UHGV virus genome: UHGV-0342044
Source: a virus
Length of the DNA stretch: 19,882 nt
Reading direction: 5' to 3' (one strand)
How positions within the stretch are numbered: the first letter of the stretch is position 1; each line of letters opens with the position of its first letter. A program made the position numbers and the translations under genes. Below are positions 1-9,284 of the stretch, piece after piece. The notes beneath the pieces were generated by a model. That model was not told the DNA's origin and did not search any database. It worked only from the letters and a program-made list of their open reading frames with translations.

Positions 1-482
1 TTCGTAATGACCTGGCGGATGCCTTACCGGAAAGTGCAGCCTGTAAGGCACTGAGATTACCGAAGCCTGTTGTGCCGTCTGTCACCCGGGAAAGTGACCT
101 TGTTCCTTCGGTTCCTGCCACCAGCATCATCCAGGATAAAGTGAAAAAGGTGCTGGCGCTGAAAGTGGATCCGGAGTCGCCGGAGTCTTTTATGTTACGC
201 CCAAAACGTCGCCGCTGGGTTAATGAAAAGTACACGCGCTGGGTTAAGACACAGCCGTGTGCATGTTGTGGTAAGCCTGCTGATGATCCCCACCACCTGA
301 TAGGTCACGGTCAGGGTGGAATGGGTACAAAAGCGCATGACCTCTTTGTGTTGCCTTTGTGCAGAAAGCATCACGACGAGCTGCATGCGGATACCGTGGC
401 ATTTGAAGAGAAGTATGGCTCCCAGCTGGAGCTGATATTTCGTTTTATCGATCGTGCGCTGGCAATTGGCGTGCTGGCCTGA
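1..482 (+). CDS. DUF968 family protein (YdfU-like), 5'-truncated by window edge
   Basis: Reading frame is open from the window start (frame 3) to TGA at 480-482. C-terminal Cys/His cluster (CACCGKP...[12 protein letters not shown]...[11 protein letters not shown]) resembles prophage DUF968 proteins that sit immediately upstream of Q in Qin-type prophages. The true start lies upstream of the window. Confidence 0.6.
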
Positions 483-499
483 TTTTGTGGAGAAAGTTG

Positions 500-865
500 A
501 TGCGTGATATTCAAATGGTTCTTGAACGTTGGGGGGCATGGGTGGCAAATAATCACGAGGATGTCACCTGGTCGTCTATTGCTGCAGGATTTAAAGGACT
601 AATCCCTTCAAAAGTAAAATCCCGCCCGCAATGTTGTGACGATGACGCGATGATCATTTGTGGGTGCATGGCTCGCCTGAAAAAGAACAACAGCGATTTG
701 CACGATTTATTAGTGGATTATTATGTAGGTGGTATGACGTTTATGGCGCTTGCCCGTAAACATGGGCGTTCTGATTGCTGGGTTGGGCGTTTATTGCAAA
801 AGGCTGAAGGTGTAGTTGATGGCATGTTAATGATGTTAGAAATTGAGCTAGAGATGGATCGTTAG
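500..865 (+). CDS. late-gene antitermination protein Q (short QuuD / phage-82-like type)
   Basis: ATG at 500 preceded by GGAG at 489-492; the ORF track begins at a TTG at 485. Protein [14 protein letters not shown]...[18 protein letters not shown] matches from memory the short Q antiterminators of E. coli cryptic prophages. Position just before the lysis region fits. Confidence 0.75.
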
Positions 866-906
866 AAGACCTCTTATTGAGGGGGTAATTGAATCAGTTT
901 AATGTG

Positions 907-938
907 TGGGGAGTCGATTTATTCTCCCCATTTTATTT
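907..938 (+). terminator. putative rho-independent terminator downstream of Q (tR'-like)
   Basis: Inverted repeat TGGGGAG (907-913) / CTCCCCA (924-930) with a 10-nt loop, followed by TTTTATTT (931-938) on the + strand. Confidence 0.45.
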
Positions 939-949
939 AATTAATTTAC

Positions 950-1396
950 TTAAGGTTTTAATTCATCAAGACGTTGTTGGATAGTGTTTTTGCTTGCGTT
1001 GTCTGTTATAGCCATTTGTTGTACTTGCCCCATTGCCATTTGAGTTTCCATCCACATATCGGCCCACACTTTTGTATCGTTATTAACTTGAGCGATAGTA
1101 AATCTGACTTTTGATACCGGGGTTGTTGAATAGGCATTGCCGATTAACATTTGTCCAAAAACAGCAGAGCCGCCTTCCAGTTCTTTACCACATATAACAC
1201 TGCTGTTATCCGCGTTGTAAATTATCAACCCTCTACTATTGCAGTAATTCACAAGGGCATCTTTGACTTTATCTTTTGTCATATTTTGATAAACCCCCTC
1301 AGGTTTTCCTGATTGAGTTTTCTTTATCAATGGTACGGAAGAAGTACAACCTGAAATGATAGTTGCGCTAAGTAATAGTACAGTCATTTTATTCAT
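950..1396 (-). CDS. putative lipoprotein (accessory moron, unknown function)
   Basis: 148-aa ORF on the minus strand with an N-terminal signal peptide and lipobox (MNKMTVLLLSATIISGC). Strongly AT-rich relative to the flanking phage genes. It is the only convincing minus-strand gene in the window. Confidence 0.7.
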   Translation of the reverse strand: MNKMTVLLLSATIISGCTSSVPLIKKTQSGKPEGVYQNMTKDKVKDALVNYCNSRGLIIYNADNSSVICGKELEGGSAVFGQMLIGNAYSTTPVSKVRFTIAQVNNDTKVWADMWMETQMAMGQVQQMAITDNASKNTIQQRLDELKP

Positions 1397-1526
1397 GTTT
1401 CTTATCCATTGTTAAGGGCATACCCACACAATTATTTTTATTGGAGATGAATAATCAACCGTTTACAATCGTAAAAAATCAAATATGCTGTTAAGAGTGG
1501 TTACTTCGCCACACAACTTAAACCCG

Positions 1527-1544
1527 CCGCTGAGCGGTTTTTTT
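1527..1544 (+). terminator. putative rho-independent terminator
   Basis: Short GC stem CCGC (1527-1530) / GCGG (1534-1537) with loop TGA, followed by a run of seven T (1538-1544) on the + strand. Confidence 0.4.
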
Positions 1545-1666
1545 GTACCTGTAAACTTGGTGCAGTACAGTAAACACGCTGGTGGTCGTGAATACTGACT
1601 TTTTATCTTGCTGGCTTTTTAGACAAGAGTTATTGGTATGTCATGTTAACCAGAAGGGGAAAAGAC

Positions 1667-1870
1667 ATGCTAAAACAGCAAGATATGACAGAAACCGCCG
1701 CCGCAGTCCTTCATTTCTTACCTGCTGACAAGTGGGTAACGCCACGCATGATGACGAGAACTGCCGGAGTAAGCGAAGCCCGGTGCCAGTTAATACTGAC
1801 CCAGTTAGTTCTGGCGGGTCTGGCGAAGGATAACGGCGGGTACGGGAATAAATTCAGACGCTGCCAGTAA
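1667..1870 (+). CDS. small hypothetical protein, possible winged-helix DNA-binding protein
   Basis: ATG at 1667 preceded by AAGGGGA (1654-1660). 67-aa product MLKQQDMTETAAAVLHFLPADKWVTPRMMTRTAGVSEARCQLILTQLVLAGLAKDNGGYGNKFRRCQ has a helix-turn-wing-like pattern. The ORF track gives a longer version from 1643. Function is inferred only. Confidence 0.5.
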   Translation: MLKQQDMTETAAAVLHFLPADKWVTPRMMTRTAGVSEARCQLILTQLVLAGLAKDNGGYGNKFRRCQ

Positions 1871-1897
1871 TGGCGGTTTCCTGCTGTGAAAATGGGC

Positions 1898-2020
1898 GGC
1901 TGGTGGGTGTTGGTAGCACCTACCAGCCATTCGCTCATGCTTACTGGTCACAAGCGAACCACGGCCCACTGCTTTAGCGCAAAAGCAGAGTGAGCCTACC
2001 AGAGTTACGCTTACTGATCC
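1898..2020 (+). promoter_or_regulatory. repeat- and hairpin-rich leader upstream of the methyltransferase gene
   Basis: Direct repeats CCTACCAG at 1919-1926 and 1995-2002; GCTTACTG(G/A)TC at 1939-1949 and 2009-2019. Hairpin TGGTAG-CAC-CTACCA at 1911-1925 and hairpin CTGCTTT-AGCGCA-AAAGCAG at 1969-1988. No Shine-Dalgarno sequence before the ATG at 2021. Confidence 0.3.
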
Positions 2021-3073
2021 ATGAAAAATACTGTAAAAATAAACAGTGTTGATTTAATCAACGCTGATTGCCTGCATTTTATTCAGTCCCTGCCTGATGA
2101 TTCCATTGACCTGATTGTTACCGATCCGCCGTACTTCAAGGTGAAACCCAACGGCTGGGACAATCAGTGGAAAGGGGACGAAGATTACCTTAAGTGGCTG
2201 GACCACTGTCTGGCCCAGTTCTGGCGGGTGTTAAAACCTGCCGGAAGCCTTTACCTGTTCTGTGGGCATCGCCTGGCATCTGATATTGAGATCATGATGC
2301 GTGAACGTTTCAACGTGCTTAACCATATCATCTGGGCGAAGCCGTCCGGACGTTGGAATGGGTGTAATAAAGAAAGTCTGCGCGCATATTTTCCTGCCAC
2401 AGAGCGCGTTCTGTTTGCTGAACATTACCAGGGGCCATATCGTGGCAAAAGTGATGGCTATGCGGCAAAAGAAAGGGAACTCAAACAGCACATAATGGCA
2501 CCGCTGATATCGTATTTCAGGGATGCTCGTGCCGAACTGGGTATAACGGCAAAACAAATTGCCGAAGCCACAGGTAAGAAAAATATGGTTTCCCACTGGT
2601 TTGGTGCCAGTCAGTGGCAGTTGCCGAATGAGGCTGACTATCGGAAGTTACAGGCACTGTTTTCCCGTATAGCGGCAGAGAAGTTTCAGGAACAACAACT
2701 GGAACAACCACACCACCAGCTGGTGGCATCTTATGATTCACTGAATCGCAAATATTCTGAATTGCTGGATGAGTTTAAATCTCTCCGGCGCTATTTCTCC
2801 GTATCAGTCTCCGTGCCTTATACCGATGTCTGGACGCATAAGCCCGTTCAGTTCTACCCGGGTAAACATCCGTGCGAGAAACCGGCGGATATGCTCCGGC
2901 AAATAATCAATGCCAGTAGTCGCCCTGGTGATCTGGTTGCTGATTTCTTTATGGGATCCGGTTCCACAATAAAAGCAGCAATGGCGCTGGGGCGTCGGGC
3001 GTTAGGTGTTGAACTTGAGTCAGAGCGGTTTAATCAGACGGTGAAAGAGGTAAGTGAACTGGTGGGGAAATAA
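2021..3073 (+). CDS. DNA methyltransferase, beta-class (N6-adenine or N4-cytosine)
   Basis: 350-aa ORF with catalytic DPPY motif near the N-terminus (IVTDPPYF) and the AdoMet-binding FxGxG motif near the C-terminus (DFFMGSGST). This circularly permuted order is typical of beta-class amino-methyltransferases. A central insertion carries an HTH-like segment (ITAKQIAEATGKKNMVSHWF). Confidence 0.85.
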   Translation: MKNTVKINSVDLINADCLHFIQSLPDDSIDLIVTDPPYFKVKPNGWDNQWKGDEDYLKWLDHCLAQFWRVLKPAGSLYLFCGHRLASDIEIMMRERFNVLNHIIWAKPSGRWNGCNKESLRAYFPATERVLFAEHYQGPYRGKSDGYAAKERELKQHIMAPLISYFRDARAELGITAKQIAEATGKKNMVSHWFGASQWQLPNEADYRKLQALFSRIAAEKFQEQQLEQPHHQLVASYDSLNRKYSELLDEFKSLRRYFSVSVSVPYTDVWTHKPVQFYPGKHPCEKPADMLRQIINASSRPGDLVADFFMGSGSTIKAAMALGRRALGVELESERFNQTVKEVSELVGK

Positions 3074-3149
3074 TTCTGGTGGCCACGTTGCGTGGCCTTT
3101 TTATTTCCAACACAGCACCCGCAAATATCGCGAGGTGAGAGATGACGAA

Positions 3150-3485
3150 ATGCCTCATAACCCAAATACCTGGCCGGACTGGCTGGAGTTGTTTCAGAGC
3201 TGGTGGCGTGGAGACACGCCGCTGGGTGCAGTGATTATGTCGATCGTTATGGCTGGTTTGCGCATCGCCTATTTTGGCGGTGGTGGTGGCTGGAAGCGAA
3301 AAACGCTCGAGATTTTGCTCTGTGGCGCTCTGACGCTGACCTTTGCATCCGCTCTTGAGTATGTCGGATGGCCTAAATCACTTTCTGTTGCCATTGGTGG
3401 CGGCGTGGGGCTGATCGGTGTCGATGCTATTCGTGGGGCTGCAATGCGAGTAATCGGTAACAAGTTTGGTGGCTCTAAGGAGTAA
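3150..3485 (+). CDS. S: holin, class I (lambda S-like)
   Basis: ATG at 3150 preceded by GAGGTGAG (3132-3139). 111-aa product begins MPHN (lambda S105 begins MPEK) and has three predicted transmembrane segments and a charged C-terminus (IRGAAMRVIGNKFGGSKE). It lies immediately upstream of the endolysin. The ORF track's longer version from 3054 overlaps the methyltransferase and is probably artefactual. Confidence 0.75.
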   Translation: MPHNPNTWPDWLELFQSWWRGDTPLGAVIMSIVMAGLRIAYFGGGGGWKRKTLEILLCGALTLTFASALEYVGWPKSLSVAIGGGVGLIGVDAIRGAAMRVIGNKFGGSKE

Positions 3486-3488
3486 TTT

Positions 3489-3965
3489 ATGCAGGTACTA
3501 AATTCCCAGCGTAAAGCTTTCCTCGATATGTTGGCGTGGTCAGAAGGAACGGATAACGGGCGACAGCCAACCCGCAATCACGGCTACGACGTTATTGTAG
3601 GTGGTGAGTTATTCACGGATTACTCCGATCATCCTCGCAAACTTGTCACGCTAAACCCCAAACTCAAATCAACAGCCGCCGGACGTTACCAGCTTCTTTC
3701 ACGCTGGTGGGATGCTTACCGTAAACAGCTTGGCCTGAAAGATTTTTCTCCAGAAAGCCAGGACGCTGTAGCTCTGCAGCAGATTAAAGAGCGTGGCGCT
3801 TTACCGATGATTGATCGCGGTGATATTCGTCAGGCTATCGACCGTTGCAGCAATATCTGGGCTTCACTACCGGGCGCTGGTTATGGTCAGTTCGAGCATA
3901 AAGTTGACAGCCTGATTGCAAAATTCAAAGAAGCAGGCGGAACGGTCAGAGAGATTGAGGTATGA
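3489..3965 (+). CDS. R: endolysin, lambda R-type lytic transglycosylase
   Basis: 158-aa product is near-identical from memory to lambda R ([20 protein letters not shown]...[23 protein letters not shown]...) including the catalytic Glu in AWSEGTD. AAGGAG Shine-Dalgarno at 3476-3481. Confidence 0.95.
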
Positions 3966-4399
3966 GCAGAGTAACCGCGATTATCTCCGCTCTGGTTATT
4001 TGTATCATCGCCTGCCTGTCATGGGCTGTTAATCATTACCGTGATAACGCCATCGCCTACAAAGAACAGCGCGATAAGGCCGCATCCATTATCGCTGACA
4101 TGCAGAAACGTCAACGTAATGTAGCTGAACTCGATGCCAGATATACAAAGGAGCTTGCTGATGCTAACGCGACTATCGAAAGTCTCCGTGCTGATGTTTC
4201 TGCTGGGCGTAAGCGCCTGCAAGTCGCCGCCACCTGTGCAAAGTCAACGACCGGAGCCAGCGGCATGGGCGATGGAGAAAGCCCAAGACTTACAGCAGAT
4301 GCTGAACTCAATTATTACCGTCTCCGAAGTGGAATCGACAGGATAACCGCGCAGGTTAACTACCTGCAGGAGTACATCAGGACGCAATGTCTGAATTAA
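3962..4399 (+). CDS. Rz: i-spanin Rz
   Basis: Start overlaps the R stop (ATGA). N-terminal transmembrane segment [31 protein letters not shown] is near-identical to lambda Rz, followed by a coiled-coil periplasmic domain. Confidence 0.9.
4161..4346 (+). CDS. Rz1: o-spanin Rz1 (lipoprotein), embedded in the +1 frame of Rz
   Basis: ATG at 4161 preceded by AAGGAG (4148-4153). Product has a signal peptide with lipobox (LLGVSAC) followed by a Pro-rich segment ([13 protein letters not shown]), the hallmark of Rz1. It lies entirely within Rz in another frame, as in lambda. Confidence 0.8.
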
Positions 4400-4402
4400 C
4401 AG

Positions 4403-4428
4403 AGCCAGCTTAATTGCTGGCTTTTTTG
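4403..4428 (+). terminator. rho-independent terminator after the lysis cassette
   Basis: AGCCAGC (4403-4409) / GCTGGCT (4416-4422) stem with loop TTAATT, followed by TTTTTT (4423-4428), directly after the Rz stop. Confidence 0.6.
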
Positions 4429-4749
4429 TTTCCGGGGCCAATCAATTAAGCACACAGTATCGTGACACAATCATGCGTCGCATCGTCGCCGTATTCCCGT
4501 ATTAACAGAGACCGTAGCCCGACGGGGAACTCCTTCTGCGCGAGTATGCGGGAATAATCAAAAACGATGCACACCGGGTTTTTACCGCGTTTATGGTTCG
4601 CGGGTTTGTCCCTCATGCTCGCCAGTCCTGTGCGGGGGTGGAAGAAACAGGACACTTACACAGATTCTTGTGGGCACGATGCTATGTCTTTCTGGATTAT
4701 CTCGATGCCATTCATGCAAGGCGCTGTATCAGACGTTCGTCAGAGCTGT

Positions 4750-4810
4750 CAGGCTGACGGGTCCTCCCTGTGGGGTGGCCTGCCACGGGGCGGGAGCGTC
4801 GCGGAAAAAG
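4750..4810. other. cos site (cosQ-cosN region), lambda-like
   Basis: The sequence GACGGGTCCT...CCACG-GGGCGGGAGCGT-CGCGG aligns from memory with the lambda right-end / cosN / left-end junction (ACGGGTCCTTTCCGGTGATCCGACAGGTTACG-GGGCGGCGACCT-CGCGGG). It sits about 175 bp upstream of the small terminase gene. Confidence 0.6.
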
Positions 4811-4884
4811 GCTAGTTTTTGCATTTTTATCGGCCACCATCATCTTTGCATCTTATTGATTATTAATGGTTATTTGTTTTTTGT

Positions 4885-4951
4885 ATGTCGAATTGAGTGT
4901 TTTTTGTTCGACATCGAACGCGTTTTCTTAAAGTTGTTCGCACGATGCATG
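4885..4951. repeat. cosB-like region with TCGA-core inverted repeats (candidate small-terminase binding sites)
   Basis: ATGTCGAA (4885-4892) and its reverse complement TTCGACAT (4907-4914); imperfect palindrome GTTCGA-CA-TCGAAC (4906-4919); a related GTTCGCACG at 4936-4944. All lie between the predicted cosN and the small terminase start. Confidence 0.35.
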
Positions 4952-4973
4952 TTTAAAGCTCTCCGGAGGAAAT

Positions 4974-5465
4974 ATGGATCATGAGTTGAAAAACCTGGTG
5001 CTGAATATTAATCAACTGGCGGCTTTATCTGGTCTGCACCGCCAGACTGTCGTGGCAAGACTGAAAAACATTCGTCCCGCTGGTGGACATGACAAACTCA
5101 AGCTATACCGGTTGACCGATATTCTGACTGAATTTATGGGGTTACCACCGCCGGTTGCTGAGGGCGAAATGGATCCACATGAACGCAAAGCCTGGTATCA
5201 GTCTGAACGTGAGCGTCTTAAGTTCGAACAGGAAACGGCACAACTCATTCCGGCCAGTGATGTCAGACGGGAGTTTGCCATCTGGGCAAAAGCGGTCGTG
5301 CAGGTGCTGGAGACATTACCGGATATTCTGGAACGTGACTGCGGCCTGCAGCCTGCCGCTGTGAGCCGTGTTCAGTCCATTATTGATGATCTGCGCGATC
5401 AGATAGCCCTGCGGGTGACCGAAGCAGGTGCGGATGATGAGGAGGAATTACAGCAGGAGGAGTAA
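4974..5465 (+). CDS. terminase small subunit (Nu1-like, N-terminal HTH)
   Basis: GGAGGA Shine-Dalgarno at 4965-4970. 163-aa product has an N-terminal HTH-like segment (LNINQLAALSGLHRQTVVARLKN) and an acidic C-terminus. Stop overlaps the large terminase start (TAATG), and it lies immediately downstream of cos. Confidence 0.75.
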   Translation: MDHELKNLVLNINQLAALSGLHRQTVVARLKNIRPAGGHDKLKLYRLTDILTEFMGLPPPVAEGEMDPHERKAWYQSERERLKFEQETAQLIPASDVRREFAIWAKAVVQVLETLPDILERDCGLQPAAVSRVQSIIDDLRDQIALRVTEAGADDEEELQQEE

Positions 5466-7567
5466 TGCTGAATCAGGAAACCGCAAAGGCAGCACGAACC
5501 GATTCAGGTTATATCCTTCGCGCACCGAGACGAATGCTGGTTGCTGATGCCGTTGCTCAGTATATGCGGGTGCCCATGGGGGCCGGGAACTCAGTCCCGT
5601 GGGATCCGCTGGTGGCACCGTATGTTATTGAGCCGATGAACTGCCTGGCCTCGCGTGAATACGACGCAGTGATATTTGTTGGCCCGGCACGAACTGGCAA
5701 GACTATCGGCCTGATTGACGGCTGGGTGATTTACAACGTGATTTGCGATCCTGCGGATATGTTGATCATTCAGATGACGGAGGAAAAAGCCCGCGAACAC
5801 TCCAAAAAACGACTTGCCAGAACGTTTCGCGTCAGCCCGGAAGTGGTCAGTCGCCTGAGTCCGAACAAAAATGACAACAACGTTTATGACAGAACATTCC
5901 TTGCTGGCAACTACCTGAAAATCGGCTGGCCGTCAGTCAATATCATGTCCTCATCAGATTATAAATGCGTGGCGCTGACGGATTATGACCGTTTTCCGGA
6001 AGATATTGATGGCGAGGGGGATGCCTTCTCTCTTGCCTCAAAACGTACCACCACATTTATGTCCAGTGGTATGACGCTGGTGGAGAGTTCCCCCGGCAGG
6101 GATGTGAAGGATGTGAAATGGCGACGGACTTCACCGCATGAGGCTCCACCAACCACGGGGATACTGTCGCTCTATAACCGTGGCGATCGCCGTCGCTGGT
6201 ACTGGCCCTGTCCACACTGTGGTGAGTATTTTCAGCCCTGCGGCGATGTGGTTGCTGGTTTCCGTGATATTGCCGATCCCGTGCTGGCAAGTGAGGCGGC
6301 TTATATTCAGTGTCCTTCCTGTTCAGGACGGATTATGCCTGAACAAAAACGTGAGCTGAACGGACGTGGGGTCTGGTTGCGGGATGGTGAATCCATCAAT
6401 GCGGATGGCAGTCGTTATGGTGATCCCCGACGCTCACGTATTGCGTCATTCTGGATGGAGGGTCCGGCAGCTGCTTACCAGACACTCTCGCAACTCGTTT
6501 ACAAACTGCTTACTGCAGAACAGGAATACGAGACAACCGGAAGTGAAGAAACACTCAAGACGGTTATCAATACCGACTGGGGATTACCTTATCTTCCCCG
6601 TGCCAGCATGGAGCAACGAAAAAGTGAACTGCTTGAACAGCGGGCAGAGCCAGTTCCTTCCCGCAGTGTGCCGGATGGCGTTAATTTCCTGGTGGCGACA
6701 GTTGATGTGCAGGCGGGACGTCATCGCCGTTTTGTGGTTCAGGTAACGGGCTATGGCAGCCGTGGCGAACGCTGGATTATTGATCGTTACAACATCACGC
6801 AGTCATTGCGCGGTGACAGCGACGGGGAGAGCCAGCGAATTGATCCGGCCAGCTATCCGGAAGACTGGGATGTCCTGCTGACGGATGTTTTTCATAAAAG
6901 CTGGCCGCTGGCCTCCGATCCTTCTCAACAAATGCGACTGATGGCAATGGCGGTGGACTCCGGCGGTGAAGACGGGGTCACTGATAATGCCTATAAATTC
7001 TGGCGTCGTTGCCGTCGTGATGGCCTTGGTAAACGTATTTACCTGTTTAAGGGCGACAGCATCCGGCGCGCAAAACTGATCACCCGTACATTCCCTGATA
7101 ACACCGGACGAACGGGCCGACGGGCGCAGGCCGCAGGTGATGTGCCGCTCTGGCTTCTTCAGACGGATGCCCTGAAAGACCGGGTGAATAACGCGTTATG
7201 GCGTGACTCTCCAGGTCCCGGCTATGTGCATTTCCCTGACTGGCTGGGGAGCTGGTTTTACGACGAACTGACGTATGAAGAGCGGAGTAGTGACGGGAAA
7301 TGGAGTAAGCCGGGTCGCGGTGCCAACGAAGCTTTTGACCTGATGGTGTATGCCGAGGCTCTGGTCATTCTGCATGGATACGAAAAGATCCGCTGGCCGG
7401 ATGCACCGGAGTGGGCGAGCCGGGAAACCTGGCTGGAGTGTGTCCCGGACAGTACCGAACCGTCACCCTCACCGGAACCGGTATCCACGCCTGTTAAAAA
7501 ACAAAAACGGAAGAAAACAGTAACTGACGATGTTAACCCCTGGCTGACTTCCGGAGGATGGTTATGA
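5465..7567 (+). CDS. terminase large subunit (GpA family)
   Basis: 700-aa product with Walker A motif (VGPARTGKT) and the CPHCGE zinc-ribbon-like motif (WYWPCPHCGEYF) also present in lambda gpA. Translationally coupled to the small subunit. Confidence 0.9.
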   Translation: MLNQETAKAARTDSGYILRAPRRMLVADAVAQYMRVPMGAGNSVPWDPLVAPYVIEPMNCLASREYDAVIFVGPARTGKTIGLIDGWVIYNVICDPADMLIIQMTEEKAREHSKKRLARTFRVSPEVVSRLSPNKNDNNVYDRTFLAGNYLKIGWPSVNIMSSSDYKCVALTDYDRFPEDIDGEGDAFSLASKRTTTFMSSGMTLVESSPGRDVKDVKWRRTSPHEAPPTTGILSLYNRGDRRRWYWPCPHCGEYFQPCGDVVAGFRDIADPVLASEAAYIQCPSCSGRIMPEQKRELNGRGVWLRDGESINADGSRYGDPRRSRIASFWMEGPAAAYQTLSQLVYKLLTAEQEYETTGSEETLKTVINTDWGLPYLPRASMEQRKSELLEQRAEPVPSRSVPDGVNFLVATVDVQAGRHRRFVVQVTGYGSRGERWIIDRYNITQSLRGDSDGESQRIDPASYPEDWDVLLTDVFHKSWPLASDPSQQMRLMAMAVDSGGEDGVTDNAYKFWRRCRRDGLGKRIYLFKGDSIRRAKLITRTFPDNTGRTGRRAQAAGDVPLWLLQTDALKDRVNNALWRDSPGPGYVHFPDWLGSWFYDELTYEERSSDGKWSKPGRGANEAFDLMVYAEALVILHGYEKIRWPDAPEWASRETWLECVPDSTEPSPSPEPVSTPVKKQKRKKTVTDDVNPWLTSGGWL

Positions 7568-7776
7568 ACCAGAATGATATCGAAGCCATGATTCAGCGTT
7601 ATACGGAAGCTGAAATGGCGGTGCTGGACGGAAAATCCGTCACCTTTAATGGTCAGCAGATGACCATGGAAAACTTATCTGAGATCCGGCAGGGACGGCA
7701 GGAGTGGGAGCGCCGCCTTGCGGCTCTGATTACACGACGACGGGGGCATCCCGGGTACCGGCTGGCGAGGTTCTGA
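7564..7776 (+). CDS. head-tail joining protein (gpW-like)
   Basis: About 70-aa ORF between terminase and portal. ATG at 7564 overlaps the terminase stop (ATGA); GGAGG at 7553-7557. C-terminal RRRGHPGY resembles the lambda W C-terminus. Confidence 0.55.
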   Translation: MNQNDIEAMIQRYTEAEMAVLDGKSVTFNGQQMTMENLSEIRQGRQEWERRLAALITRRRGHPGYRLARF

Positions 7777-9284
7777 TGGCAATTCTTGATGATGTGATTG
7801 GCGTTTTTTCACCAGGATGGAAAGCGGCAAGGCTGCGTTCCCGTGCGGTGATCCAGGCTTATGAGGCCGTAAAAACGACGCGGACACATAAAGCCCGGCG
7901 GGAAAACCGAACTGCCGACCAGTTAAGCCAGTACGGGGCCGTGTCGTTACGTGAGCAGGCCCGTTACCTTGATAACAACCACGATCTGGTCATTGGTGTA
8001 TTTGACAAGCTGGAAGAACGGGTGGTGGGGAAAAACGGGATTATTGTCGAGCCACATCCGGTATTACGCAATGGGGCCATTGCCCGTGATCTGGCAGCGG
8101 AGATACGCACCCGATGGAGTGAATGGTCTGTCAGTCCGGAAGTCACCGGGCAGTTTACCCGTCCGATGCTGGAACGTCTGATGCTGCGTACCTGGCTGCG
8201 CGATGGTGAGGTGTTTGCCCAGATGGTTTCCGGGCGCATAAACAGCCTGACGCCTTCTGCCGGTGTTCATTTCTGGCTGGAGGCGCTCGAGCCGGACTTT
8301 ATTCCCATGACCAGTGATGAGAGCAACAGGCTGAATCAGGGCGTGTTTGTTGATGACTGGGGGCGTCCCGAAAAATATCTGGTGTATAAAAGCCGTCCCG
8401 TATCCGGGCGGCAGATGGAAACCAAAGAAGTGGATGCAGAGCGAATGCTGCATCTTAAATTTGTTCGCCGTCTGCACCAGATGCGCGGGACGTCTTTGTT
8501 GTCCGGTGTGCTGATCCGCCTCAGTGCCCTGAAAGAGTATGAAGATTCTGAGCTGACTGCAGCAAGGATCGCCGCTGCTCTGGGGATGTACATCCGCAAA
8601 GGCGACGGACAGAGCTATGAAACGGATGGTAATGACAGCAAGGAGAATGAACGCGAGCTTACCATTCAGCCAGGCATTATTTACGACGATCTGAAACCCG
8701 GCGAAGAAATCGGAATGGTGAAGTCGGATCGCCCCAATCCTAATCTTGAAACTTTTCGTAATGGTCAGTTGCGTGCCGTGGCGGCGGGTAGTCGTCTGAG
8801 TTTTTCCAGTACAGCGCGCAACTATAACGGCACTTACAGCGCCCAGCGTCAGGAGCTGGTTGAATCCACTGATGGCTACCTGATCCTGCAGGACTGGTTT
8901 ATTGGTGCCGTCACCCGCCCGATGTATCGTGCCTGGCTGAAACAGGCTGTGGCATCCGGTGTTATCAGGCTACCCCGCGATCTTGATCGTTCTTCACTGT
9001 ATACCGCGGTGTATTCCGGACCGGTGATGCCGTGGATTGACCCTGTTAAGGAGGCTGAGGCCTGGAAAATTCAGATTCGTGGTGGAGCGGCGACAGAATC
9101 AGACTGGGTACGTGCAGGTGGTCGTAATCCGGATGATGTCAAACGTCGGCGCAAGGCAGAAATTGATGAAAACCGCAAGCTGGATCTGGTATTTGATACC
9201 GATCCTGCCAGTGATAAAGGAGGCAGCAGTGCCGCAACGAAACGACAGGAGCCGCAGCACACCGACGACCAGTCCGAAGAATAA
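7776..9284 (+). CDS. portal protein
   Basis: About 500-aa ORF immediately after the W-like gene. ATG at 7776 overlaps the W stop (TGATG). Position and size are typical of a portal; the ORF track's upstream extension from 7704 overlaps W. Confidence 0.85.
   Translation: MAILDDVIGVFSPGWKAARLRSRAVIQAYEAVKTTRTHKARRENRTADQLSQYGAVSLREQARYLDNNHDLVIGVFDKLEERVVGKNGIIVEPHPVLRNGAIARDLAAEIRTRWSEWSVSPEVTGQFTRPMLERLMLRTWLRDGEVFAQMVSGRINSLTPSAGVHFWLEALEPDFIPMTSDESNRLNQGVFVDDWGRPEKYLVYKSRPVSGRQMETKEVDAERMLHLKFVRRLHQMRGTSLLSGVLIRLSALKEYEDSELTAARIAAALGMYIRKGDGQSYETDGNDSKENERELTIQPGIIYDDLKPGEEIGMVKSDRPNPNLETFRNGQLRAVAAGSRLSFSSTARNYNGTYSAQRQELVESTDGYLILQDWFIGAVTRPMYRAWLKQAVASGVIRLPRDLDRSSLYTAVYSGPVMPWIDPVKEAEAWKIQIRGGAATESDWVRAGGRNPDDVKRRRKAEIDENRKLDLVFDTDPASDKGGSSAATKRQEPQHTDDQSEE

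What the first reader, a model, noticed from the sequence alone, without database searches (positions are those of the whole stretch)
866..3149. Accessory cargo island inserted between Q and the lysis cassette
In lambdoid phages the Q-to-holin interval is the classic moron hotspot (stx in Stx phages, a porin in DLP12). Here about 2.3 kb sits in that slot: a reverse-oriented AT-rich lipoprotein gene, a small putative DNA-binding protein and a DNA methyltransferase. None is needed for lysis or morphogenesis, so they are candidate lysogenic-conversion or anti-defence functions. I found no stx-like ORFs and no tRNA genes in this interval.
Basis: partly seen in the sequence, partly recalled or inferred. 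Interest (0 to 1): 0.6.

Follow-up and report, generated by a model that had tools for sequence, protein, structure and literature searches.

The report
Prophage methylase cassette with conserved leader
The DNA between the phage's late-gene switch (Q) and its lysis genes holds two unrelated add-ons: a backwards-facing lipoprotein gene, and a cassette for an enzyme 81% identical to M.EcoGII, which methylates adenines in any sequence context; just before that gene lies a conserved folded RNA element that matches no known RNA family.

Summary
Q ends at 865 and the holin starts at 3150. Between them lie a reverse-strand AT-rich lipoprotein gene, a 67-aa winged-helix gene and a 350-aa beta-class DNA methyltransferase. 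There are no tRNAs and no stx.

Comparison with related phages shows independently assorting blocks. The first is a lipoprotein moron between Q and the candidate late promoter. The second is pR'/tR' (1462-1546), which co-varies with Q type. The third is a terminator-flanked winged-helix + methyltransferase cassette (1521-3137), shared with SfV, mEp460, cdtI and Stx2c phages.

The methyltransferase is 81% identical to M.EcoGII, the non-specific adenine methylase, and 89% identical to its active reconstructed ancestor Anc291. The literature reports that M.EcoGII is silent in the lysogen and slows growth when over-expressed. Its position downstream of tR' fits a Q-dependent late anti-restriction function, not lysogenic conversion.

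One thing is new. The ~136 nt before the methyltransferase start (1885-2020) is conserved across Enterobacterales and recognisably in an Aeromonas phage and a Pseudomonas contig. It shows compensatory base-pair changes in several helices, has no Rfam match, and travels with the methyltransferase even where the winged-helix gene is absent. Its strand and function are unresolved.

The parts
485..865 (+). Antiterminator Q, 126 aa, QuuD/Q21-type. This is the left anchor of the interval.
   Evidence: PF06530, E 2e-51. phrog_79. Distant match to Q21 structures 6jnx/6p18, E 7e-9.
906..931 (+). Hairpin followed by a T-rich run, just after Q. It is terminator-like on the + strand. On the - strand it lies 3' of the lipoprotein gene but has no U-tract there.
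   Evidence: stem 908-927.: -13.0 kcal/mol, z -3.0.
950..1396 (-). Lipoprotein moron, 148 aa. Lipobox ISGC, Thr at +2 (outer-membrane sorting by the +2 rule). AT-rich.
1431..1458 (-). Promoter-like site for the lipoprotein gene (TTGATT-16-AATAAT), back to back with the candidate late promoter.
   Evidence: 9 of 12 matches. Consensus match only; inferred.
1462..1489 (+). Candidate late promoter pR' (TTTACA-16-TATGCT) for this Q type.
   Evidence: The block 1461-1543 is shared only with phages that have the ~125-aa Q type. In PhiR49_1 it lies between ompD(-) and the holin. Phages with the 250-aa Q type carry TTGCAT-17-TAAGAT instead.
1521..1546 (+). tR'-like intrinsic terminator (AAACCCGCCGCTGAGCGG + T7). 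It is the left recombination joint of the methylase cassette.
   Evidence: Annotated as a terminator in SfV. Homology to SfV, mEp460 and Stx2c phages starts exactly here. The terminator is duplicated on both sides of an extra ORF in mEp460 and PhiR47_1.
1667..1870 (+). Small winged-helix protein, 67 aa (the ORF is open from 1643). Equivalent to SfV orf47, phrog_331.
   Evidence: AF2 pLDDT 85. Foldseek best full-length matches are Zalpha, IclR and TrmB winged helices, TM 0.7-0.8 but E >= 0.009. Directly upstream of the methylase in 64 of 89 loci.
1860..1877 (+). Hairpin with the winged-helix stop codon in its loop. It is weakly terminator-like. Loci without the winged-helix gene have a strong intrinsic terminator at this position.
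   Evidence: Sequences (Yersinia, Hafnia, Lonsdalea).
1885..2020 (.). Conserved structured element directly upstream of the methylase ATG. As modelled on the + strand: P1 1893-1897:1964-1968; P2 1898-1911:1915-1928; P3 1930-1938:1950-1958; P4 1963-1975:1982-1996; P5 1998-2002:2014-2018. The transcribed strand is unresolved.
   Evidence: No Rfam match.
2021..3073 (+). Beta-class DNA adenine methyltransferase of the M.EcoGII clade, 350 aa. DPPY at 35-38, FMGSG at 310-314.
3081..3107 (+). Intrinsic terminator after the methylase. It is the right joint of the cassette; homology to mEp460, cdtI and PhiR40_1 ends at 3137.
   Evidence: -12.5 kcal/mol, z -2.2. Annotated in SfV..
3150..3485 (+). Holin S, 111 aa, lambda family. 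This is the right anchor and is followed by R, Rz and Rz1.

Best explanation
The 2.3-kb interval is a mosaic of independently exchanged units in the late-control region of an E. coli lambdoid prophage. It is not one island.

(1) Between Q and the late promoter sits a reverse-oriented, AT-rich gene for an outer-membrane lipoprotein. It is a classical moron, probably transcribed from its own promoter in the lysogen. Its likely role is at the envelope, for example receptor masking or superinfection exclusion. That role is inferred and held with low confidence.

(2) Next come the candidate late promoter pR' and terminator tR' that belong to this Q type.

(3) Downstream of tR', and closed by a second terminator, is a promoter-less cassette: a small winged-helix gene, a conserved structured ~136-nt element, and an M.EcoGII-type methyltransferase. 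No strong independent promoter was found for this cassette. RNA polymerase should therefore reach it only after Q makes it terminator-resistant, so the methylase would be made only in late lytic growth. There it is expected to methylate adenines in replicating phage DNA regardless of sequence context, giving progeny broad protection against m6A-sensitive restriction systems in the next host. It would stay off in the lysogen, where the literature reports that over-expression slows growth.

The conserved element abutting the start codon most likely adds a post-transcriptional layer of control on this harmful enzyme. The methylase has no Shine-Dalgarno sequence.

Shown here: gene content, family membership by sequence, mosaic joints, conservation and covariation of the element. 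Inferred: promoter and terminator function, Q dependence, non-specific activity of this particular enzyme, the function of the element, and the lipoprotein's role.
For: Methylase identity. It aligns full-length at 81% identity with M.EcoGII, 89% with Anc291 (an experimentally active reconstructed ancestor) and 70% with SUPREM (sequences machine-read from PMC11551740 Tables S1 and S4). It has the same DPPY - central TRD - FxGxG order and the same length as described for M.EcoGII.

Expression of the family. M.EcoGII is not expressed in its lysogen, cells over-expressing it grow more slowly, and its authors proposed an anti-restriction role (PMC5778455). [quoted passage not shown]

Anatomy. There is a promoter-like site at 1462-1489 and terminators at 1526-1538+T7 and 3081-3097+T. 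SfV annotates terminators at both homologous places. No promoter-like site lies between tR' and the small ORF.

Mosaic joints. Phages with the 250-aa Q join the window exactly at 1521. Phages with the ~125-aa Q share 1461/1488 onward. cdtI, whose Q diverges after window 619, shares only from 1488, which is from the -10 onward.

Independent assortment. 185, 1673 and 162 genomes of 5426. Strain UTME-1 has the same Q and lipoprotein with a different downstream block. Lipoprotein homologues occur inside tail-gene clusters of other prophages.

The element. Cassette order is conserved in Salmonella and Plesiomonas prophages and in a Klebsiella phage. The element is found upstream of the methylase in 72 of 77 loci, including those without the winged-helix gene. 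A covariance model gives one hit per locus, always just upstream of the methylase and on its strand. 24 of 38 modelled pairs show changes on both sides; there are 137 such cells against 36.9 +/- 4.7 in shuffles and 17-56 in slid controls.
Against: The promoter match is only 9 of 12, and the tR' stem is 4-5 bp. The 1490-1552 stretch does not fold better than shuffles (z -0.63). No transcript data were available.

Specificity is inferred from identity; changes in the TRD could narrow it.

The cassette could also be reached by N-antiterminated early transcription or by an undetected promoter.

The lipoprotein promoter and terminator are weak consensus matches, and its function has no direct support: there are no Pfam, NCBIfam or PADLOC hits.

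The covariation counts were made on an alignment fitted to the model, which leans towards the structure. Many sequences share ancestry.
Confidence: 0.7

Rival explanations
1. This is one horizontally acquired accessory island whose three genes are expressed from the repressed prophage as lysogenic-conversion functions.
For: The slot is variable among relatives. The left part is AT-rich. The same slot is described as a moron site in SfIV.
Against: The three genes do not travel together. Low GC is confined to about 750-1650; the methylase block is 0.47-0.53. The methylase block lies behind a terminator and has no promoter-like site of its own. Its family is silent in lysogens.
Confidence: 0.1
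2. The methylase is a sequence-specific orphan enzyme, like Dam, CcrM or YhdJ, with a regulatory or packaging role. The winged-helix protein is its transcription factor.
For: It has the beta-class fold shared with CcrM, RsrI and YhdJ-type enzymes. A small DNA-binding protein sits directly upstream. A conserved GATC lies next to the start codon.
Against: Matches to the specific families are far below their cut-offs (110 vs 292 bits; 67 vs 830 bits). In contrast, identity to the non-specific M.EcoGII, Anc291 and SUPREM series is 70-89% over the full length, including the TRD.
Confidence: 0.1
3. The small ORF and methylase are the remnant of a restriction-modification system: a controller protein and a methylase whose endonuclease has been lost.
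For: PADLOC assigns the methylase to a type II MTase model (E 1.6e-152). A small regulator upstream of a methylase is the usual layout of C-protein systems.
Against: No endonuclease-like ORF lies in or next to the cassette in any of the roughly 90 loci; the holin follows directly. The small protein is a winged helix without an HTH_3/Xre match. 25 of 89 loci lack it.
Confidence: 0.03
4. The conserved 136 nt are not an RNA structure. They would instead be a short coding sequence, a DNA-level site such as a protein-binding array, or simply young DNA that has not had time to diverge.
For: An ATG at 1893 opens a 32-codon frame in the window (sequence). Many loci are closely related. P5 and P1 hardly vary.
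Against: The frame is broken by a stop after 7 codons, or by indels, in most loci. The element is as conserved as, or more conserved than, the adjacent ORF at nucleotide level in 16 of 18 distant loci. P2, P3 and P4 keep pairing through different sequences in Yersinia, Ewingella, Hafnia, Providencia, Lonsdalea and Aeromonas. A role for some invariant stretches as DNA sites (for example an antisense promoter) is not excluded.
Confidence: 0.1

Closest known systems
M.EcoGII / M.EcoGI of E. coli O104:H4 C227-11 (non-specific adenine DNA/RNA methyltransferase; Murray et al. 2018, PMC5778455)
   Same: 81% identity over the full length. Same length (350 vs 349 aa). Same beta-class motif order with a central TRD. 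Prophage-borne in E. coli.
   Different: Activity was not measured for this allele; it is closer (89%) to the reconstructed ancestor Anc291. The passages read from those papers do not mention the Q/tR' context, the upstream winged-helix gene or the conserved leader.
SfV orf47-orf48, and the same cassette in mEp460, cdtI, PhiR40_1 and Stx2c phages
   Same: The same cassette at 89-98% nucleotide identity, bounded by the same terminators, between Q and the holin.
   Different: Those phages have other Q types, other holins or other neighbours. Only PhiR40_1 also carries the lipoprotein gene. The genes are annotated only as hypothetical protein and DNA methylase.
Reverse-strand ompD porin in phage PhiR49_1 (and, from memory, nmpC in the K-12 prophage DLP12)
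   Same: A reverse-oriented envelope-protein gene placed between a QuuD-type Q and the shared promoter-terminator block that precedes the holin.
   Different: The cargo there is a porin; here it is a 148-aa lipoprotein of unknown function. The DLP12 layout is recalled from memory and was not checked here.
stx and tRNA cargo of Stx phages (a late-operon insertion downstream of pR'-tR')
   Same: Cargo placed after tR', so that expression depends on Q (PMC6266700). Stx2c phages carry this very methylase upstream of stx, and many Stx2a phages retain its last 33 codons.
   Different: The cargo here is an anti-restriction enzyme, not a toxin. There are no tRNAs.
Phage Mu com-mom, and the non-specific adenine methylases that replace mom in Mu-like prophages
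   Same: A harmful adenine-modifying anti-restriction enzyme that is silent in the lysogen. A small protein gene lies immediately upstream and a structured mRNA leader lies at the start codon. In Mu, Com binds that leader and activates translation (PMC6483171, PMC3299994; PMC12707154).
   Different: There is no sequence or fold relationship: Com is a zinc finger, while this is a winged helix. Any binding of the winged-helix protein to the element is untested. A quarter of the loci lack the small gene but keep the element.
Phage lipoprotein morons such as lambda Bor and the Cor/Llp exclusion lipoproteins (recalled from memory)
   Same: A small lipobox protein encoded by an AT-rich, independently oriented insert in a lambdoid prophage. 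Homologues also sit next to tail genes.
   Different: There is no detectable sequence similarity to any named family. The fold resembles KA1, Flpp3 and BamC domains. Function is unknown.

Membership tests
M.EcoGII clade of beta-class N6-adenine methyltransferases | Motif order: N-terminal DPPY (motif IV), central TRD, C-terminal FxGxG (motif I). | tested here: met
   VTDPPY at 33-38 and FFMGSGST at 309-316 in the translation. PF01555 spans residues 29-341.
M.EcoGII clade of beta-class N6-adenine methyltransferases | Close full-length sequence similarity to M.EcoGII, including the TRD (residues ~160-237). | tested here: met
   81% identity with 2 gap positions over 349 aa. 89% to Anc291 and 70% to SUPREM. 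The comparison sequences were machine-read from PDFs and contain a few reading errors.
M.EcoGII clade of beta-class N6-adenine methyltransferases | Methylates adenine in any sequence context. | not testable with these tools
   Needs methylome or enzyme assays. Inferred from bracketing by three assayed enzymes (PMC5778455, PMC11551740).
M.EcoGII clade of beta-class N6-adenine methyltransferases | Prophage-encoded and transcriptionally silent in the lysogen. | tested here: inconclusive
   The prophage context is met. Silence is only suggested by the position behind tR' and the lack of a promoter-like site.
Moron (independently transcribed accessory gene in a prophage) | Present or absent between genes that are otherwise neighbours in related phages. 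| tested here: met
   The lipoprotein block 866-1460 is absent from SfV, mEp460, cdtI and PhiR49_1, which carry other or no genes there. It is in 185 of 5426 genomes.
Moron (independently transcribed accessory gene in a prophage) | Nucleotide composition differs from the surrounding phage genes. | tested here: met
   GC 0.34-0.39 against about 0.47-0.56. This applies to the lipoprotein block only, not to the methylase block.
Moron (independently transcribed accessory gene in a prophage) | Own promoter and terminator. | tested here: inconclusive
   Lipoprotein: a 9/12 promoter-like site at 1458-1431 on the minus strand, and a downstream hairpin without a U-tract on that strand. Methylase cassette: no promoter-like site, so it does not meet this feature.
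Moron (independently transcribed accessory gene in a prophage) | Expressed from the repressed prophage. | not testable with these tools
   Needs lysogen RNA-seq.
Bacterial lipoprotein | Signal peptide ending in a lipobox [LVI][ASTVI][GAS]C. | tested here: met
   MNKMTVLLLSATIISGC. Cys17 is invariant in 19 homologues.
Lambdoid Q / pR' / tR' late-control module | A Q-family antiterminator gene. | tested here: met
   PF06530, 173 bits. Distant match to Q21 structures.
Lambdoid Q / pR' / tR' late-control module | A constitutive promoter with a Q-binding site, followed by a terminator, upstream of the lysis genes and specific to the Q type. | tested here: inconclusive
   Promoter-like and terminator-like sites are present. 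The block co-varies with Q type across 7 phages. No binding or transcription data are available.
Any Rfam family (for the 1885-2020 element) | A covariance-model match. | tested here: not met
   No hit at E <= 1 in the window region or in four divergent loci.
Winged-helix DNA/RNA-binding domain (small ORF) | Three helices plus a beta-hairpin wing. | tested here: met
   AF2 pLDDT 85: H7-17, H26-33, H37-49, E53-55, E63-65. TM 0.7-0.8 to Zalpha and IclR winged helices, but E >= 0.009. Distant homologues carry a weak PF17782 hit and the name TrmB family.

The most novel reading that the evidence does not exclude
The ~136-nt element that abuts the start codon of M.EcoGII-type methylases (window 1885-2020) may be a previously undescribed class of regulatory RNA. 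It has a multi-helix fold. Two covarying pairings are mutually exclusive (P1 against the base of P4), which suggests a switch. The wobble pattern implies that structure is selected on both strands: P2 on the sense strand, P3 and P4 on the antisense strand. It could be one of three things. It could be a sense leader that gates translation of an enzyme harmful to the host, which has no Shine-Dalgarno sequence. It could respond to the adjacent winged-helix protein, as the Mu mom leader responds to Com, or to a small molecule. Or it could be a sense/antisense pair that silences leaky transcripts in the lysogen. Any of these would supply a control layer beyond Q dependence for how such an enzyme is kept off in the lysogen.
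Probability: 0.5. Interest if true: 0.65.

Novelty: new member of a known kind. Interest (0 to 1): 0.5.

Why it matters
The island as described is ordinary. Cargo between Q and the lysis genes is textbook. This exact arrangement is in a published phage (PhiR40_1, 98% identical over the interval) and in 162 complete E. coli genomes.

Two things add value. First, a gene annotated only as 'DNA methyltransferase' in hundreds of E. coli, Shigella and Salmonella prophages, and in Stx2c phages, can be named as an M.EcoGII-type enzyme. Its position behind tR' offers a concrete, testable reason for the reported silence of M.EcoGII in lysogens. This bears on how temperate phages, including Shiga-toxin phages, cross restriction barriers.

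Second, a conserved structured element is linked to this methylase family across Enterobacterales, and recognisably in an Aeromonas phage and a Pseudomonas contig. No Rfam family matches it. It is a ready candidate for studying how phages control an enzyme that harms the host. It may also matter to users of EcoGII as a biotechnology reagent.

Tried and rejected
- Pfam, NCBIfam and PADLOC gave nothing for the lipoprotein or the small ORF. PHROGs gave only families of unknown function.
- The PDB sequence search for the methylase found only distant beta-class enzymes and no EcoGII structure.
- A leader peptide starting at ATG 1893 was rejected. The frame stops after 7 codons in most loci, and its length and frame vary.
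- The repeated CCTACCAG (1921-1928 and 1994-2001) was considered as an alternative partner of the 5' arm of P2. It was rejected because the complementarity is lost in Yersinia and other clades whose P2 sequence differs.
- A column-pair scan for further tertiary pairs was dominated by clade-specific changes and was not used.
- Strand assignment by wobble counts and hairpin energies gave a split answer. P3 is 97% paired on the minus strand against 75.5% on the plus strand. P3 and P4 are more stable on the minus strand in 67/69 and 60/66 sequences. P2 is more stable on the plus strand in 57/69.
- A minus-strand promoter was sought. The consensus scan found none. By eye, an invariant TGnTA(G/A)GCT (the complement of 1993-2001) with T(A/G)GATC 17 nt upstream looks like an extended -10 promoter. 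It could not be tested, and its predicted start would cut P4.
- Literature searches for a described RNA at this place, or for the Q/tR' context of M.EcoGII, found nothing. The pR' comparative paper does not mention the methylase.
- RNAalifold on a plain MAFFT alignment recovered only parts of the structure.
Full report
**What is there.** The window is the late region of an E. coli lambdoid prophage. In order it holds:
- a DUF968/HNH gene (72-482);
- a 126-aa Q antiterminator (485-865, PF06530);
- the interval in question;
- holin S (3150-3485), endolysin R, and Rz/Rz1;
- DUF1441-type small terminase, a lambda-type large terminase, and ORFs further on whose sizes and order fit a lambda-like head and tail cluster.

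The closest phage is PhiR40_1, 98% identical over window 1-3137. SfV, mEp460 and cdtI are partial relatives.

**The interval is a mosaic.** Pairwise BLAST against seven related phages gives sharp joints.
- 1-494 is shared by all seven.
- The Q gene is shared only with phages that have a ~125-aa Q.
- 866-1460 (the lipoprotein gene) is shared only with PhiR40_1.
- 1461-1543 is shared with PhiR49_1, where it lies between a reverse-strand ompD gene and the holin.
- 1521-3137 is shared with SfV, mEp460 and Stx2c phages, which have a different 250-aa Q.

The sequences show what sits at the joint. In the window, TTTACA-16-TATGCT (1462-1489) is followed about 30 nt later by the terminator AAACCCGCCGCTGAGCGG-T7 (1521-1546). 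The 250-aa-Q phages carry a different promoter-like sequence (TTGCAT-17-TAAGAT) in front of the same terminator. cdtI has a Q that diverges after window position 619, and it shares the window sequence only from 1488 onward, that is from the -10. In lambdoid phages the Q-binding site lies partly between -35 and -10 (PMC6266700). So the sequence that changes with Q is where a Q-binding site should be.

I therefore read 1462-1546 as pR'-tR'. The support is a consensus match plus co-variation with Q type; there are no transcript data. In mEp460 and PhiR47_1 the terminator occurs twice, on either side of an extra ORF. The same junction sequence is seen upstream of the cassette in the Stx2c phage, but a second copy was not looked for there. 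This suggests the terminator serves as the recombination joint at which modules are swapped.

**The lipoprotein gene.** It lies between Q and pR' on the other strand, so it cannot be part of the late transcript. Several properties fit a moron:
- It is AT-rich.
- It has a lipobox with an invariant cysteine, and a non-Asp +2 residue.
- A modest promoter-like site lies back to back with pR'.
- It is found in 185 of 5426 complete E. coli genomes.
- Homologues at 50-72% identity occur across Enterobacterales. Some sit in quite different prophage positions, such as between the tape-measure and minor-tail genes, or next to the tail-tip gene.

The predicted fold is an alpha+beta helix-grip domain like KA1, Flpp3 and BamC, which does not name a function. 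An envelope role such as exclusion is a guess based on analogy.

**The methylase.** It is 81% identical over its full length to M.EcoGII, 89% to the reconstructed and assayed ancestor Anc291, and 70% to SUPREM. The motif order and domain layout are those described for M.EcoGII. M.EcoGII methylates adenine in any context. It is not expressed in its native lysogen, cells over-expressing it grow more slowly, and its authors proposed that it defeats restriction (PMC5778455; PMC12707154 calls it toxic when artificially expressed). In the passages I read, that paper gives no explanation for the silence.

The position found here offers one. The gene lies behind tR', has no promoter-like site of its own, and is followed by another terminator (3081-3107). 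It should therefore be read only by Q-modified polymerase. This step is inferred. It makes the methylase a late anti-defence gene, not a lysogenic-conversion gene.

Many Stx2a phages keep only the last 33 codons of this gene. This shows that the stx region was built on the same cassette.

**The small ORF.** It is a 67-aa winged helix. It precedes the methylase in 64 of 89 loci, with a spacer of mostly 147-151 nt. It is also found in front of a different gene in strain UTME-1.

**The conserved element.** The spacer between the small ORF and the methylase is better conserved than either gene. Mean column identity is 87% among six sequences whose small proteins are only 52-57% identical. Nucleotide identity is equal to or above that of the methylase ORF in 16 of 18 distant loci.

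- Distribution. With 80 further loci from one genome per species, a sequence profile finds the element in 72 of 77 upstream regions, including loci that lack the small ORF. A covariance model finds exactly one hit per locus, always next to the methylase start, in 71 loci out to an Aeromonas phage and a Pseudomonas contig. A 20-mer from it occurs in at least 120 viral contigs. In 104 of 119 scorable cases a full methylase follows, and the rest are cut by contig ends or are pseudogenes.
- Not coding. The frame is not kept.
- Pairing. In the hand-built structure 81.8% of cells pair, against 30-40% when partners are slid. 24 of 38 pairs change on both sides. There are 137 double-change cells against 36.9 +/- 4.7 in shuffles. 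P2 in particular is rebuilt from different sequence in Yersinia, Ewingella, Hafnia, Providencia, Lonsdalea and Aeromonas. RNAalifold on its own recovers P2 and the core of P4.
- Caveat. The alignment was fitted to the model and the sequences are related, so these numbers overstate independence.
- Possible switch. A further pairing, UGGGC (1893-1897) with GCCCA (1964-1968), is nearly invariant, with compensatory changes in two lineages. It overlaps the base of P4, which also covaries, so the two cannot both form.
- No known family. Rfam 15 has no match in the window or in four divergent loci.

**Strand of the element.** This is open. Non-standard cells in P3 are almost all C.A or A.C (144, against 10 G.U). 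P3 would therefore be 97% paired on the minus strand and 75.5% on the plus strand. P3 and P4 hairpins are more stable on the minus strand, and P2 on the plus strand. A sense leader together with an antisense RNA would fit this split, but I could not identify a convincing minus-strand promoter.

Either way, several observations point to control of methylase expression:
- the fixed position of the element against the start codon;
- the lack of a Shine-Dalgarno sequence;
- the conserved GATC just before the ATG;
- the reduced synonymous variation in the first 10-15 codons.

The nearest functional analogy is Mu com-mom. There a small protein encoded just upstream binds a structured leader to allow translation of a harmful adenine-modifying enzyme (PMC6483171). 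Non-specific adenine methylases replace mom in some Mu-like prophages (PMC3299994). This is an analogy only; there is no homology.

**Verdict.** The 'moron hotspot' frame is right for the slot and for the lipoprotein gene, and it is already in the literature (PMC3851460). It is wrong in treating the three genes as one island. The methylase cassette is a widespread, conserved, probably Q-dependent late anti-restriction module of a known enzyme family. What is new is the structured element in front of it, which deserves experimental follow-up.

Noticed in passing
L003 1855-1886 and 2532-2563; L005 1855-1886 and 2532-2596; window 1521-1551: The tR'-like terminator sequence AACCCGCC(G/A)CTGAGCGGGTTTTTTTG occurs twice in mEp460 and PhiR47_1, flanking an extra 138-141-aa ORF. 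It is also the exact left joint of the methylase cassette, so it looks like a shared recombination linker for swapping late-region modules.
   Followed up: partly
Phage records H92-H103 (e.g. PA52 21771-21869): Many Stx2a-converting phages retain only the last 33 codons of the EcoGII-type methylase (85-88% identity). The gene has apparently been deleted from the Q-stx region, whereas Stx2c phages keep it whole.
   Followed up: no
L009 (E. coli UTME-1) 3621-8577: The same Q, lipoprotein and winged-helix gene are followed not by the methylase but by a 237-aa HTH-domain protein, tRNA-Ile/Arg/Arg, TerB, DUF3927 and a SASA esterase. This is an Stx-phage-like layout without stx in the stretch shown.
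   Followed up: no
L098 4001-4450; L099 4001-4447: Homologues of the lipoprotein (62-70% identity) are inserted in tail-gene clusters of Citrobacter and Jejubacter prophages: between the tape-measure and minor-tail genes, and near the tail-tip J gene.
   Followed up: partly
window 2021-2065: Third-codon positions of the first 10-15 methylase codons vary far less than later ones across 65 loci (0.52-0.87 bits against about 1.3-1.5). This indicates an extra nucleotide-level constraint that continues from the upstream element into the ORF.
   Followed up: partly
window 2015-2018 (GATC), 1993-2001: A GATC (Dam site) 2 nt before the methylase ATG is conserved in nearly all loci. The invariant AGCCTAYCA reads on the other strand as TGnTAGGCT, which resembles an extended -10 promoter element, with T(A/G)GATC 17 nt upstream.
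   Followed up: partly
L073, L077, L080, L085, L088-L091, L093, L094, L097 (Xenorhabdus): The methylase ORFs in these Xenorhabdus loci have no ATG at the position homologous to the start, so they probably use a non-ATG start. Photorhabdus loci have a shortened leader (about 100-nt spacer) that keeps only P2.
   Followed up: no
window 1496-1546: If pR' and tR' work as predicted, the uninduced prophage would make a transcript of about 50 nt ending at tR'. In Stx phages the equivalent short transcript has been reported to act as a small regulatory RNA (StxS); that is recalled from memory and was not checked here.
   Followed up: no
window 4400-4973: A 575-nt stretch without a convincing gene lies between Rz and the small terminase. 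It opens with a strong terminator-like hairpin (about 4403-4430), has a GC-rich middle, and ends in an AT-rich run before 4974. It probably holds the cos region.
   Followed up: no
L158 402-421 and 3388-3407: One IMG/VR contig carries the leader 20-mer twice, 3 kb apart on the same strand. This suggests tandem methylase cassettes.
   Followed up: no
window 1-482: The DUF968/HNH gene is cut by the left end of the window. Related phages have a 305-330-aa protein there (YdfU family).
   Followed up: no
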